This document shows positions 9,563 to 38,074 of a stretch of 64,000 bases of DNA, piece after piece. Origin of the DNA: Octopus vulgaris (taxonomy: Eukaryota). Under the pieces are notes generated by a model that searched no databases, was not told the origin of the DNA, and saw only the letters and a list, made by a program, of their open reading frames with translations. Every line of letters starts with the position of its first letter. Within the stretch, counting starts at the first letter, position 1. Location of the stretch: positions 46,252,001 through 46,316,000 of the forward strand of contig OX597819.1 in NCBI GenBank assembly GCA_951406725.2, given 5' to 3'. Both the position numbers and the translations under genes were made by a program.

Positions 9563-10254
9563 TTAAGAGTGTGACATGCTTTGGCACAGCTGTCTCGGCA
9601 CAGCCGTCTTGACACAGCCGTCTTGGCACAGCCGTCTTGGCACAGCCGTCTTAGCACAGCCGTATTGGCACAGCCGTCTTGGCACAGCCGTTTTGGCACA
9701 GCCGTCTTGGCACAGCCGTCTTGGCACAGCCGTCTTAGCACAGCCGTATTGGCACAGCCGTCTTGGCACAGCCGTCTTGGCACAGCCGTCTTGGCACAGC
9801 CGTCTTGGCACAGCCGTCTTGGCACAGCCGTCTTGGCACAGCCGTCTTGGCACAGCCGTCTTGGCACAGCCGTCTTGGCACAGCCGTCTTGGAACAGCCG
9901 TCTTGGCACATGGATTATCCTATATGATTAGGCATCGATATAGTTGAGCAAGTATTGTATGCGATGTTCTAATTTATTAAGAGTGTGACATGCTTTGGCA
10001 CAGCTGTCTCGGCACAGCCGTCTTGACACAGCCGTCTTGGCACAGCCGTCTTGGCACAGCCGTCTTAGCACAGCCGTATTGGCACAGCCGTCTTGGCACA
10101 GCCGTCTTGGCACAGCCGTCTTGGCACAGCCGTCTTGGCACAGCCGTCTTGGCACAGCCGTCTTGGAACAGCCGTCTTGGCACATGGATTATCCTATATG
10201 ATTAGGCATCGATATAGTTGAGCAAGTATTGTATGCGATGTTCTAATTTATTAA
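9563..10254. repeat. Two tandem cassettes, each with a 14-bp minisatellite (TTGGCACAGCCGTC; 23 and 13 units) and a shared ~70-bp tail
   Basis: Arrays at 9581-9910 and 9995-10184 with the same leader gagtgtgacatgct, the same variant units and the same tail. Confidence 0.95.
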
Positions 10255-28800: not shown

Positions 28801-30584
28801 TATGTATATATATGTATATATATATGTATATATATACAGGGTGAGAAAATGTTTTAAGTAATGATTTACGTAATATAACATAAAAGGCGAATAGGACAAG
28901 GAGATGAAAATGAAGGAGAAAGACCGAGAGGAAAACCAGACAACTGTGACTGATAGTAAAATAAACGAGGAGGTGCGGGAAGAGGTGAGCGGCAAGAAAT
29001 TACTGCGAAGGAGGAAGAAACCGAAAGTGAAAGTTATATTGCGCGAAAGCTGTAATGCGAGAGTTAGGGTTAAGGGAAAATTTAGTCTGTGATAGAGAGA
29101 ATGTGTATGTTTGAGAGGGAGTGAGGTGAGGAGATAAAGAGAAATGAAGGGAAAGATTATGAGAAGTACTCAAAACTAAAGAAGAAATGAAAGTAATATA
29201 GAGAGGGATTTAGTTAGCAATAGAGAGAGAAGGGAGAGAGATGGGGATGCATTTGGAAGAATGTAAGAGACAACTTGAGCTAGGATATAAGAGAGTAAAA
29301 GATTTATCAGGAGTGAGTGAGCGAGAGAGTGAGACTGTAAGAATGAGGTTGAGACGTACCAAGCAAGAACTATGGAAGCGAAGAGATAAAAAGGAGAAAA
29401 AAAGGAGTGAGGTTTTAGAGAGCAATGATGGGAGATGGGGGAAGTCAACGAGCATAAAGGAGAGAATAGCAGCGAGAGAGAAAGTGGCAAGGAGCTAAAG
29501 CAGGCACGAAAAATAGAAAGCTACAGAGATGTAATGTGAGATTGGGAATGTAGGAATGTAGGAGGTAGAGATAGTAAGAGAGAGAGGGAGTGAGAGAGAG
29601 ATGGTATGAGAGAGAGAGAGAGAAAGAAGGAGAGCAAGAATGAAATAATAATTCATATTTCTTTGAAATAATGAAATTTACGTGTTTAGAAAGATAAGTC
29701 TTTTGATGTTTAAACCCCGCTTCTCCGTGATCCTAAAAGCCGCATAAGTATTTATGACTTCCACGGTTCTTTCGGGATCAAACAGGGCGGAAACCTCCCA
29801 TCCACCCATTTTTTTTCTTTAGAAGTATTACATAAACTGAGGTTATTAACTAAAAGCATATTTCACTCCGGAGGTGAGAAGCTTAGCCACGAGTTTTCAT
29901 ATCTCGCATATTAAACAGTGTCGTAAATTTAGAGAAAGCCTCTAAGCCGTACTGTTGCTGCTTTGCTGCTCTTTTTCTTGTTGTTGCTGCTGATGCTGAT
30001 GCTGCTGCTGTTGTTGTTGTTGCTGTTGTTGTTGTTGTTGTTGTTGTTAATGCTGTTTCTGCTGTTGTTGTTGCTGCTGTTATTGATGATTCAAAACTTC
30101 TTGTCTGGAACACATGCCTAACCAATGGGAGGATTTAAGTTTAGCACTCGTCAGTTAAACACTGTCCTCCAACAATGAACAACACTAACTTGAACAGGAG
30201 CCAAAGGTGATGCACCTACATCAGGAACAGGCAACAAGTTTTCGAAAAGCAGGCCGCATGCGACATACACACATCATCATCAGGCGGGACGTACTGCTAA
30301 AAAATTTCAGGTTAGCTCTTCGTTAGGGGTACCCTTCAAAAAGTGTCACCGATCGCATACGAACCACGGCTGCAGGTTACCCCTAACTGATCGGCATAAT
30401 CGCTAACCTGCTTGAAATAGCTGTCTGACCAACCTAAAATTTCATTCTATCATCTTAACAAAGAGAAGAGCGCAATTAAGTTAAGTAAGATGATTTAGTT
30501 CTAAAACACATAAAGGGCGATAACTGCACCAACAATTGTTTCGATCATAGATTTAGTAAATCAGGTTTACTAATACTCCAGTTA

Positions 30585-33415: not shown

Positions 33416-33504
<89 letters not shown>

Positions 33505-33506
<2 letters not shown>

Positions 33507-33795
33507 TTAAAATGAGGGTGAGAAATTGGATATCAATGTAATTAACATCAATTTAACACCAGTGGTCTATCATATTAAAATTCTGAAGGTTCAGTAAATT
33601 GTATTATATACATATGGGAGGGATGACCACCATGTGGACAACCCTTATGCTAGAAGTAGATCCGCTATGGTCTAACCACTAAGAAATATTCTGAAGAAAA
33701 TTTTTTCTTCAGAACATTTTTTAGTGGTTAGACCATAGCGGATCTACTTCTAGCATAAGGGTTGTCTACATGGTGGTCATCCCTCTCATATGTAT
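33505..33795. mobile_element. Palindromic Penelope-pLTR/retrozyme-family terminus in (TA)n
   Basis: ~95-bp arms (33606-33700 and 33703-33795) with a few mismatches; left part homologous to 35538-35735. Confidence 0.8.
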
Positions 33796-34093
33796 GTATA
33801 TATATATATGTATATATATATACACACGTTTAACCCTTTCAAATACAGGTTCTACTCACACAATCATAGTCACAAACATACACATGCGTATCTAAAATTA
33901 TCAGCTATTTTGTAAGTTATGTAATTCCATTGGTATGTGAATATTTTCCAGCTGCATTTAATTACAACTTTCCGCTATTCAGTACATGAATTAATCATTA
34001 ATCCTGTTGACACATAATCAACTTTACTGTGACTATTGCTTGACGTTTAAACCTAGAAAGTAGATAATCTACATTTCGTTTCCTCTTAAATTA

Positions 34094-34659: not shown

Positions 34660-35279
34660 TACTGTCGCACTTTGTATTCGTCGCATTCTCTATCAGTGGT
34701 GTTTGTCATAAGCTGTGTGGTGAAATGCGTGATTATTTTCGGCTATGTTTTATTGTTACGAATTCCTGTGCTTTACAGTAGTGTAGTTTAACGTGATAGC
34801 TTCTGTTCCAGCAGAAATTAGCCTTGAAGCAAGTTATATCTATAAGATACACTAGGAAGGAATCTACCTAATCCTGGAATTTGTAGTAATGCACTAGCGC
34901 ATCATGGGAGTATCTAAATAGTCGATTCACCTGCTAGAAATTGCAAGGAAATTTAGCTCAAACTATATATTATAATGTTATGAAAAGAAATAGTGAGAGC
35001 ACATTAGATAATGTAGTCGTAAAGACCAGATGGACATAATTGAAATTACGCTCAACGTAGAGTTCTGTTCGACTGGTGTTGACCTCGGACAAAACAACTC
35101 CACCAACAGCGATAACAATGATAAAATAACAAAACAAAATGATTTTCGGCTAAAAATATTAAATTGTTTTCATTAATGCTATTCTTCTTATACAATATTT
35201 ATCAATCGCAGCCAAGATGAGAACAAAGAACAAACACACACACACACATATATACAGAGAGAGAGATTGATATATATAT

Positions 35280-35314
<35 letters not shown>

Positions 35315-35363
35315 AATGTATATAGATATATATAAATGTATAAATATATATATATTTATATAA

Positions 35364-35404
<41 letters not shown>

Positions 35405-35469
35405 TATATATGTATATAAATGTATATATATATATATATACATACATATATACATACATATATATATTT

Positions 35470-35506
<37 letters not shown>

Positions 35507-36221
35507 CATACATATATATATATATTTATAATTAATTAATAAGGGTGAGAGAATTAGATACTAATTTAATAGTATATTTATTCCACACCAAGTGGCCTAG
35601 TGCTACGAGAAACCTGGATTATTATAATATTTTATAACATATTATAATATTTTTACAAAATAAATATAAGAGAGTGGTCACTATATTGATCACCCTAGCA
35701 CCAGTTAATCCAAAAGGTTTCAACCACGAAAAATACATGTTTAATTCATTAATAGCGAAACAATTGTCCCAAAATAATCTGTATTTTTGTTATTTTTTAT
35801 TTGCCCTGTCCGTGTGAGCTAACAGTCGTACTGGCTTTCATGGGAAACATGTATTTTTCGTGGTTGAAACCTTTTGGATTAACTGGTGCTAGGGTGATCA
35901 ATATAGTGACCACTCTCTTATATTTATTTTGTGAAAATATTATAATATGTTATAAAATATTATAATAATCCAGGTTTCTCGTAGCACTAGGCCACTTGGT
36001 GTGGAATAAATATACTATTAAATTAGTATCTAATTCTCTCACCCTTATTAATTAATTATAATTATGCTGCATTTATTTCTAAATGCTGTATTTGTTTTCC
36101 GTGAGAGTTTGGCGCGCTGTTGGTTGGGGCATTTGAATTATAACGTCCGATGTAATCAATTGAACCGCACGCGTATTTATCGTTATGGTAAAATCTGGCG
36201 TGTGATTGAGTGGATTTCATC

Positions 36222-36315
36222 CAGATAGTCTTGGCTGAAGAGCTACAAATGGATTATTGTAAGTAATATTACATTTAATTCATTAATAGCGAAACAATTG
36301 TCCCAAAATAATCTG
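36222..36315 (+). ncRNA. Type I minimal hammerhead ribozyme, copy 1
   Basis: Stem I cagatagtcttgg/ccaaaataatctg, CTGAAGA at 36235, stem II gcta/tagc with long extension, GAAAC-AATT-GTC; predicted cleavage after 36302. Confidence 0.88.
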
Positions 36316-36759
36316 TATTTTTGTTATTTTTTATTTGCCCTGTCCGTGTGAGCTAACAGTCGTACTGGCTTTCATGGGAAACATGTATTTTTCGTGGTTG
36401 AAACCTTTTGGATTAACTGGTGCTAGGGTGATCAATATAGTGACCACTCTCTTATATTTATATATTTTGTGAAAATATTATAATATGTTATAAAATATTA
36501 TAATAATCCAGGTTTCTCGTAGCACTAGGCCACTTGGTGTGGAATAAATATACTATTAAATTAGTATCTAATTCTCTCACCCTTATTAATTAATTATAAT
36601 TATGCTGCATTTATTTCTAAATGCTGTATTTGTTTTCCGTGAGAGTTTGGCGCGCTGTTGGTTGGGGCATTTGAATTATAACGTCCGATGTAATCAATTG
36701 AACCGCACGCGTATTTATCGTTATGGTAAAATCTGGCGTGTGATTGAGTGGATTTCATC

Positions 36760-36853
36760 CAGATAGTCTTGGCTGAAGAGCTACAAATGGATTATTGTAA
36801 GTAATATTACATTTAATTCATTAATAGCGAAACAATTGTCCCAAAATAATCTG
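36760..36853 (+). ncRNA. Type I minimal hammerhead ribozyme, copy 2
   Basis: Identical to copy 1; predicted cleavage after 36840. Confidence 0.88.
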
Positions 36854-37293
36854 TATTTTTGTTATTTTTTATTTGCCCTGTCCGTGTGAGCTAACAGTCG
36901 TACTGGCTTTCATGGGAAACATGTATTTTTCGTGGTTGAAACCTTTTGGATTAACTGGTGCTAGGGTGATCAATATAGTGACCACTCTCTTATATTTATT
37001 TTGTGAAAATATTATAATATGTTATAAAATATTATAATAATCCAGGTTTCTCGTAGCACTAGGCCACTTGGTGTGGAATAAATATACTATTAAATTAGTA
37101 TCTAATTCTCTCACCCTTATTAATTAATTATAATTATGCTGCATTTATTTCTAAATGCTGTATTTGTTTTCCGTGAGAGTTTGGCGCGCTGTTGGTTGGG
37201 GCATTTGAATTATAACGTCCGATGTAATCAATTGAACCGCACGCGTATTTATCGTTATGGTAAAATCTGGCGTGTGATTGAGTGGATTTCATC

Positions 37294-37387
37294 CAGATAG
37301 TCTTGGCTGAAGAGCTACAAATGGATTATTGTAAGTAATATTACATTTAATTCATTAATAGCGAAACAATTGTCCCAAAATAATCTG
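37294..37387 (+). ncRNA. Type I minimal hammerhead ribozyme, copy 3
   Basis: Identical to copy 1; predicted cleavage after 37374. Confidence 0.88.
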
Positions 37388-37584
37388 TATTTTTGTTATT
37401 TTTTATTTGCCCTGTCCGTGTGAGCTAACAGTCGTACTGGCTTTCATGGGAAACATGTATTTTTCGTGGTTGAAACCTTTTGGATTAACTGGTGCTAGGG
37501 TGATCAATATAGTGACCACTCTCTTATATTTATTATATTATATATATATTTATATATATTTATATATATATATATATATAAATG

Positions 37585-37699
<115 letters not shown>

Positions 37700-38074
37700 A
37701 TGCAAACATATGTATATACATATATATATGTATATTTGTGAGGGAGGGCTTATATATATATGTAAGTATGTAAGTATGTATGTATGTACGTATGTATATG
37801 AAAACAGCCAATAGGAGAAAAAAATTATTCTTTGTATGAATGAGCATTCGAATGGCGTGGTCACGTGACCTTGAAGCAACGCTACAAATGAACAGGAATC
37901 AAGAGTTACTCCCATGCTCCCAGTGCACAACAAAGGACACTGATAAGGATATACGAGAAATTAAAAATAAAATATCGTAAAACAGAATGCAGTTGTGTTT
38001 TCAATGGAACACGCGCACAGGGGCAACCATTATATTATGCATTCATTGCTCGTGCAACGGTCAAATACACTCAC

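What the first reader, a model, noticed from the sequence alone, without database searches (positions are those of the whole stretch)
35527..36060. ~216-bp near-perfect inverted arm capping the array
Seen: 35527-35742 is the reverse complement of 35845-36060 (one mismatch noticed, ~102-nt loop). The forward strand begins mid-hammerhead, so only the GAAACAATTGTC half is present at 35757-35768, with microhomology at the switch. Known: inverted, 5'-truncated pLTRs are a hallmark of Penelope-like element integration. Inference: mobilisation in trans by a Penelope RT; transcripts would form long dsRNA.
Basis: partly seen in the sequence, partly recalled or inferred. Interest (0 to 1): 0.7.

Follow-up and report, generated by a model that had tools for sequence, protein, structure and literature searches.

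The report
Two-armed Penelope-type retrozyme insertion
This inverted repeat is the short left arm of one young copy of a protein-free jumping element that carries a predicted self-cutting RNA motif; back-to-back arms are a known mark of Penelope-type retrotransposons, but across the genome the two arms end at two different fixed points and share one sequence variant, which suggests both cut DNA strands likely copied the same RNA.

Summary
Confirmed: 216-bp arms, one mismatch, 102-nt loop, 3-nt overlap at the switch. The arm belongs to a head-to-head insertion of a 534-bp tandem unit with a type I hammerhead motif (a non-LTR retrozyme) in a (TA)n tract. Of 66 complete copies fetched, 50 are two-armed. 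In 48 of 50, one arm ends about +290 and the other about +161 from the ribozyme cut; none pairs like with like. Both arms carry the same haplotype (332 of 333 site comparisons; about 76 mismatches expected). Fold-back fails for 13 of 50. Three copies in unique DNA have 14–15-bp target duplications. An active Penelope-like element in the genome obeys the same long/short rule (12 of 13) with a 34-nt tail. Best reading: a Penelope-type enzyme primes both cut strands at two fixed RNA sites and the two cDNAs are end-joined. The partner enzyme was not identified; cleavage, circles, dsRNA and reads across this junction are unshown. Inverted arms and a one-sided tail are published Penelope hallmarks. 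This scan reported the same architecture earlier on other DNA of this genome.

The parts
35270..35526 (.). left (TA)n-type microsatellite, insertion target
35527..35742 (-). short arm: unit +77 to +292 (numbered from the predicted ribozyme cut), 3' end at the long fixed site A pointing outward; one private change at 35654
   Evidence: locus L070
35543..35547 (-). CACCC motif 14-15 nt inside the long end (unit +272 to +276)
   Evidence: ends in unique targets at +289 to +291
35740..35742 (.). head-to-head junction, 3-nt overlap TTT; joins unit +77 (minus arm) to +506 (plus arm)
35740..35772 (+). 3' half of a hammerhead (truncated in stem II); not expected to cut in cis
   Evidence: inference for activity
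35740..37534 (+). long arm: 29 nt + three units (534, 538, 534 bp) + 160 nt, ending at the short fixed site B
36231..36306 (+). complete type I hammerhead motif 1 (predicted cut after 36302)
   Evidence: no Rfam match
36769..36844 (+). complete type I hammerhead motif 2 (predicted cut after 36840)
37303..37378 (+). complete type I hammerhead motif 3 (predicted cut after 37374)
37517..37521 (+). CACTC motif about 15 nt inside the short end (unit +143 to +147)
   Evidence: ends in unique targets at +162 to +164
37535..37735 (.). right (TA)n microsatellite, insertion target
33500..33798 (.). separate, older insertion of a homologous 527-bp retrozyme family (F2) with the same head-to-head long/short layout

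Best explanation
The arm is one half of a head-to-head insertion of a 534-bp hammerhead retrozyme, whose two arms end at two different fixed sites and were likely written by a Penelope-type enzyme priming both cut DNA strands on the same RNA. Shown: head-to-head layout, fixed ends near +290 (A) and +161 (B), strict A+B pairing, the same haplotype in both arms, variable junctions with short overlaps or insertions, 14-15-bp target duplications. Inferred steps: (1) the unit is transcribed and the hammerhead cuts it into monomers, linear oligomers or circles; (2) a PLE RT/GIY-YIG protein supplied in trans, probably a dimer, makes a staggered cut in AT-rich DNA; (3) one 3' end primes at site A and the other at site B, each about 14-15 nt 3' of a CAYYC motif; (4) both cDNAs run upstream through uncut ribozyme sites for variable distances, which needs strand displacement if the template is one molecule; (5) the free cDNA ends are joined end to end and repaired. 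If one cDNA is lost or tiny, a single-armed copy results.
For: 50 of 66 complete copies are two-armed; 48 are A+B, 2 are A+other, 0 are A+A or B+B (2^-48 if the sites were chosen independently at 50:50). The rule holds in both samples: 30 of 31 from the best-score search and 18 of 19 from the motif listing. Arms agree at 332 of 333 polymorphic-site comparisons in 41 loci; swapping in another locus gives 76 mismatches on average, minimum 48 in 2000 draws. Variants private to one sampled locus are fixed in all covering units in 15 loci and shared by both arms in 7. Target duplications of 14-15 bp at L036, L068, L097. CAYYC lies at +143 and +272 in this unit and at +143 and +247 in the collinear F2 unit. 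F2 shows A+B in about 26 of 32 two-armed loci (hand count). An active PLE (784-aa frame, RVT_1 E=3.5e-8, GIY-YIG E=3.8e-4 below cut-off) shows long+short ends 34 nt apart in 12 of 13 scorable inverted insertions (hand count). In vitro, an anole PLE cuts and extends both strands, starts RT internally at two sites that match the genomic tail, and is predicted to be a dimer (PMC11167929, parts 1-2 of 4).
Against: No autonomous PLE with a homologous pLTR was found among the families examined. The best candidate shares only the 10-mer TCACCCTTAT at the long end and spaces it differently from the end. The tail here is about 130 nt against the published 30-40 nt. [quoted passage not shown] Two sibling RNAs from one source locus would also give matching haplotypes; 'private' is judged against only 67 of roughly 190 or more loci. 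Arm lengths are uncorrelated (Spearman 0.16, p=0.28), so nothing shows simultaneous synthesis. Five left ends were classed by eye (two as near-A at +273, three as B with mismatches). One PLE locus (L248) is near-long plus long, and one F2 locus (L199) may be B+B.
Confidence: 0.72

Rival explanations
1. Two RNA molecules from the same source locus, one per subunit of a PLE dimer, each primed at a different site.
For: Needs no strand displacement although 31 of 48 loci have both arms passing the other arm's start site. In PLE locus L246 both arms hold the whole 784-aa frame. If one source dominates a germ cell, haplotypes would match.
Against: Does not by itself explain why two equivalent RNAs never use the same site (0 of 48). 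For an RNA mobilised in trans from many haplotypes, 332 of 333 agreement requires one source per event every time.
Confidence: 0.15
2. Fold-back or self-priming: the first cDNA (or an antisense RNA) folds on itself and the inverted arm is copied from it, as proposed for rotifer PLEs.
For: Explains the shared haplotype. Geometrically possible for the window copy (short arm lies inside the long arm, offset 105 nt, 3-nt overlap) and for 37 of 50 loci. Self-priming is the hypothesis in PMC3846280 (passages). L077 and L092 have palindromic junctions.
Against: In 13 of 50 loci the short arm holds sequence absent from the long arm, for example L087 with arms +116-162 and +262-290. Offsets between the two 5' ends look uniform over the unit (KS p=0.40), not short. 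It gives no reason for the second arm to stop at the fixed site that the first did not use.
Confidence: 0.06
3. L1-type twin priming with collision: the second primer anneals just upstream of where the first cDNA stops on one linear RNA.
For: Same head-to-head outcome (recalled: Ostertag and Kazazian model). 5' ends are enriched at +1 to +10, next to the predicted cut (8 of 100, p=6e-4 against uniform, p=0.002 against local density), which fits some linear, ribozyme-cut templates. L035 fits the model exactly.
Against: Only 9 of 48 loci have one arm's 5' end within 25 nt of the other's start, against 8.7 expected by chance. The second start is a fixed site, not an opportunistic one.
Confidence: 0.04
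4. Assembly or long-read chimera.
For: Palindromes are known assembly hazards (PMC8557442 passage). No contig bridging this junction was listed.
Against: 50 loci with different junctions but the same two fixed outer ends, target duplications, one mismatch between the arms, and a + arm that begins at a different unit position. Contigs of another study's run (X12) show head-to-head joints of this family at other positions (7 of the 9 joint rows shown, sides only 20-28 nt).
Confidence: 0.03

Closest known systems
Metazoan non-LTR retrozymes (Cervera and de la Pena 2020, PMC7229834, passages read; Li, Clavereau and Pollet 2026, bioRxiv 10.64898/2026.07.22.740005, part 1 of 5 and passages)
   Same: Non-coding tandem unit, one type I hammerhead per unit with a 2-bp stem III and tetraloop, low GC, highly self-paired monomer (z=-6.9), coexisting with PLEs; PLEs proposed there as the mobiliser.
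   Different: Unit 534 nt against about 170-400 nt; long stem II (41-nt insert). 'Inverted' does not occur in the first paper's main text and only in a reference title of the second, so two-armed insertions with fixed ends are not described there. Cleavage and circles were shown there, not here.
EN+ Penelope-like elements: inverted 5'-truncated pLTR and one-sided 30-40-bp tail (PMC8557442 passages and section 11; PMC3846280 passages)
   Same: Head-to-head inverted truncated copy, partial tandems, tail on one end, (TA)n preference, target duplications, trans-mobilisation of pLTR-flanked sequence.
   Different: No ORF; tail about 130 nt; duplications 14-15 bp against 8-10 bp in rotifer. The papers call the tail optional or often one-sided; here it is a counted near-strict rule with shared haplotype.
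Poseidon of Anolis carolinensis (PAc) in vitro (PMC11167929, parts 1-2 of 4)
   Same: Both strands cut and extended, AT-rich target, internal RT start at two sites downstream of the hammerhead.
   Different: Sites adjacent (30-40 nt) and inside the ORF start; pairing of sites per event and inversion formation not addressed in the parts read.
LINE-1 twin priming (recalled, no call)
   Same: Two primers from the two target strands, head-to-head product, microhomology junction.
   Different: L1 arms do not overlap and meet near the second priming site; here the starts are fixed, arms overlap by whole units and show no collision signal.

Membership tests
non-LTR retrozyme | [quoted passage not shown] | tested here: met
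   Three complete motifs at 534-538-bp spacing; stems I-III form under constraint at -16.6 against -17.9 kcal/mol free. No Rfam hammerhead match.
non-LTR retrozyme | no protein-coding capacity, no LTR features | tested here: met
   No frame of 120 aa or more inside the unit; the only one touching the array runs into the (TA)n tract.
non-LTR retrozyme | small unit (about 170-400 nt), GC under 45%, highly self-paired | tested here: inconclusive
   GC about 33% and fold z=-6.9 fit; 534 nt is above the published range.
non-LTR retrozyme | dispersed, recently mobile copies | tested here: met
   581 exact matches of a 27-mer; 29 loci on the largest contig; many units 99-100% identical.
non-LTR retrozyme | self-cleavage of the RNA | not testable with these tools
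   Indirect only: 5' ends enriched next to the predicted cut, which RT pausing could also cause. Stem I changes compensate between this family and F2 (TTGG/CCAA against TCACA/TGTGA).
non-LTR retrozyme | expression as monomeric circular RNA | not testable with these tools
   No run on record as RNA was listed and only contigs were available.
Penelope-like insertion pattern | inverted 5'-truncated copy, head to head | tested here: met
   50 of 66 loci; 19 of 29 motif-selected loci on contig C1.
Penelope-like insertion pattern | 30-40-bp tail at one end | tested here: inconclusive
   One-sided extension present in 48 of 50, but about 130 nt long.
Penelope-like insertion pattern | AT-rich or (TA)n target and target-site duplication | tested here: met
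   Most ends abut (TA)n; 14-15-bp duplications at 3 loci in unique DNA; not readable at the window copy.
autonomous Penelope-like element | own RT + GIY-YIG ORF | tested here: not met
   No such frame attached to any of 67 loci; PLE frames near L068 and L069 belong to separate insertions with unrelated ends.
non-autonomous derivative of a named PLE | pLTR homology to an autonomous family in the same genome | tested here: inconclusive
   None among the GIY-YIG families sampled; searches score only top candidates, and Hydra or Naiad clades were not searched with a query of their own.

The most novel reading that the evidence does not exclude
Penelope-type inversions are programmed twin priming: one asymmetric RT dimer holds one RNA, possibly a 534-nt circle, at two CAYYC-marked sites, each cut DNA strand is committed to a different site, and both cDNAs roll round the same template by strand displacement. 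The PLE tail and the inverted pLTR would then be two faces of one reaction, and retrozyme arrays direct rolling-circle products.
Probability: 0.4. Interest if true: 0.7.

Novelty: new member of a known kind. Interest (0 to 1): 0.42.

Why it matters
How Penelope-like elements make their tandem and inverted structures is stated as open in PMC8557442, and which enzyme moves animal retrozymes is a hypothesis in PMC7229834 and the 2026 preprint. This family gives counted genomic footprints: a PLE-type signature on a retrozyme, a near-strict long/short pairing and one haplotype per event. They can be tested directly in the existing in vitro PLE assay. The single inverted arm in the finding is otherwise an ordinary PLE hallmark, and any effect on the host (dsRNA, editing) is unshown.

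Tried and rejected
Rfam found no hammerhead at gathering score or up to E=5; the miRNA-family hits are below threshold and reflect perfect hairpins and TA repeats. Public runs: no RNA holder listed. Laying contigs on the junction gave no listed bridging record in X1, X12, X15 and nothing in X2; unitigs in this repeat are 31-60 nt and a hole proves nothing. Partner search: PLE families seeded from L069, L068, L179 and from PF01541 have unrelated pLTRs; a motif search for a third related end found 0 matches; the CTCACCCT end at window 28838 is single-copy by DNA search; the 3.9-kb gap at C4:173.17 Mb is a duplicated F2 copy around a satellite, not an ORF. The supplement of PMC8557442 has no TCACCCTTAT. 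The PLE frame has no solved relative at E up to 0.01. RNA editing as the source of private variants: A>G is 5 of 18, not persuasive. Circle against linear template is unresolved: among 10 loci with an arm ending at +1 to +17, the other arm runs deeper in 4 (L035, L047, L062, L064), against a single linear RNA with both sites in one unit, while L095 has both arms ending at the same cut. No host gene was identified around the insertion (ORF lists only). My hammerhead regex missed the window's own motif through a lazy match; the motif was confirmed by constrained folding. The first F1/F2 alignment was out of phase and was redone.

Full report
Observation. The stretch 35527-35742 is the reverse complement of 35845-36060 over 216 nt with one mismatch at 35654, and 102 nt lie between the arms. 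The + strand carries a tandem array of 534, 538 and 534 bp units from 35740 to 37534, between two (TA)n tracts. Each unit has a type I hammerhead motif: stem I TTGG/CCAA, core CTGAAGA and GAAA, a long stem II, a 2-bp stem III with the palindromic loop of CAATTG, and a GUC cut triplet. That fold lies within 1.3 kcal/mol of the free minimum. Rfam does not recognise it. The whole unit folds far better than shuffles (z=-6.9). Positions below are numbered from the predicted cut (+1 = window 36841).

Family. The genome is 2.8 Gb with 227 contigs; earlier scan notes call it an octopus. A DNA search gave 784 candidates, 40 scored, many units 99-100% identical. A 27-mer has 581 exact matches. I fetched 67 loci: 40 from the best-score list, which favours long arrays, and 27 from the start of the motif listing on C1 and C2. 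One (L054) is cut by a contig end and was dropped. Of 66, 50 are two-armed and head to head and 16 are single-armed; on C1, 19 of 29 motif-selected loci are two-armed. The window copy is therefore typical.

Two fixed ends. Outer ends fall at site A (mostly +286 to +293; +289 to +291 in unique targets) or site B (+155 to +164). Of 50 two-armed loci, 48 are A+B, two are A plus an odd end, none is A+A or B+B. Five ends were classed by eye. The window copy has A on the short minus arm and B on the long plus arm. Single-armed copies use A in 10 cases and B in 6. Both sites lie 14-15 nt 3' of a CAYYC motif (+272, +143). The older, collinear 527-bp family F2, with a copy at window 33500-33798, has the motif at +143 and +247 (alignment score 349 against 209 +/- 11 shuffled) and is A+B in about 26 of 32 two-armed loci, with 5 complex and 1 possible B+B (hand count; both F2 samples were selected by sequence at these ends).

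One template per event. At 11 polymorphic sites the arms agree in 332 of 333 comparisons over 41 loci; the one exception is a 35-nt arm at a hairpin. Random partners give 76 mismatches on average. Eighteen substitutions private to one sampled locus are fixed in every covering unit (15 loci), and shared by both arms in 7 loci. This fits a monomer circle or a homogeneous source array; it cannot separate one RNA from two siblings.

Junctions. Inner ends are scattered over the unit. Twelve of 36 junctions without insertion overlap by 3 nt or more (7% expected, p=4e-6), and 12 of 50 carry insertions. In 13 of 50 the short arm has sequence that the long arm lacks, and offsets look uniform (KS p=0.40), against fold-back. 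Only 9 of 48 show an L1-type collision, 8.7 expected. Eight of 100 inner ends lie at +1 to +10 and none at +525 to +534, which suggests some ribozyme-cut linear templates or RT pausing. Target duplications of 14-15 bp flank L036, L068 and L097, as expected from a staggered cut that leaves a primer on each side.

Partner. The genome holds several PLE families with GIY-YIG frames, some young and intact. One has a 784-aa frame with RT and GIY-YIG matches, ends in (TA)n at two sites 34 nt apart, and is long+short in 12 of 13 scorable inverted insertions among 14 fetched; L241's long end is inferred from a cut stretch, L249's is 8 nt short, L248 is the exception and L250 was unscorable. Its long end shares TCACCCTTAT with site A, but its pLTR does not align to the unit, nor do those of the other families. 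The enzyme class is inferred; the family is not identified.

Artefact check. No listed contig bridges this junction. Other head-to-head joints of the family appear in contigs of run X12, from another study, and of X1, a possible source of this assembly, though with short sides. Together with fixed ends and target duplications, a chimera is unlikely.

Literature. Inverted truncated copies and a 30-40-bp tail often at one end are described in PMC8557442 (passages, section 11, supplement searches) and PMC3846280 (passages), the latter proposing self-priming. PMC11167929 (parts 1-2 of 4) shows both-strand cutting and extension and two internal RT starts. Retrozymes and the PLE hypothesis are in PMC7229834 (passages) and the 2026 preprint (part 1 of 5 and passages). 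Five searches listed no paper on A+B pairing or shared arm haplotypes; I saw only listings for the other hits, and subscription papers are outside the library. That PLE RTs lack RNase H, which would let one RNA be copied twice, and the L1 twin-priming model are recalled, not from a call.

Earlier scan notes. I stated the two-site reading before the first look-up. Notes on other retrozyme families in this genome, including a 535-bp one that may be this family, reach the same reading. They are unchecked AI notes and are not counted as support. Look-ups by this unit's sequence and by place returned nothing.

Verdict. Real, and a new member of a known kind. The arm itself is a textbook PLE mark. 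The value lies in the family-wide rule, which makes the origin of PLE inversions and the mobiliser of animal retrozymes testable. Interest 0.42.

Noticed in passing
window 33500-33798: Older head-to-head insertion of the homologous 527-bp hammerhead family F2 (3,598 candidates genome-wide); its near-perfect 190-nt hairpin mimics miRNA precursors in Rfam below threshold.
   Followed up: yes
L241-L254 (e.g. L246:2006-4357, minus strand): Active Penelope-like family with many identical 784-aa frames; its hammerhead-like motif has TTGAAAAG in place of CTGANGA, read by eye.
   Followed up: partly
L128-L152 and L256-L285: At least two more young PLE families inserting in (TA)n (one with 781-aa frames), with two 3' ends roughly 30-35 nt apart by eye in the second set.
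   Followed up: partly
L095: Both arms stop at the predicted ribozyme cut (+1 and +4) after passing exactly one uncut site, as if one linear dimer RNA was copied twice to its end.
   Followed up: partly
L038: The two flanks appear to share a long (60 bp or more) microsatellite-like stretch, possibly an unusually long target duplication.
   Followed up: no
L208:1580-5560: An F2 two-armed copy is itself duplicated in inverted orientation around about 3 kb of a 20-21-bp satellite.
   Followed up: partly
window 9581-10184: 43.6 copies of a 14-bp repeat (TTGGCACAGCCGTC).
   Followed up: no
window 28836-29620: Purine-rich stretch abutting a (TA)n tract with a CTCACCCT motif on the minus strand like site A; single-copy by DNA search.
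   Followed up: partly
L069:5456-6967 and L048:4875-5360: Some units in two-armed loci are riddled with small deletions (80-94% identity), perhaps consensus errors in long palindromes.
   Followed up: no
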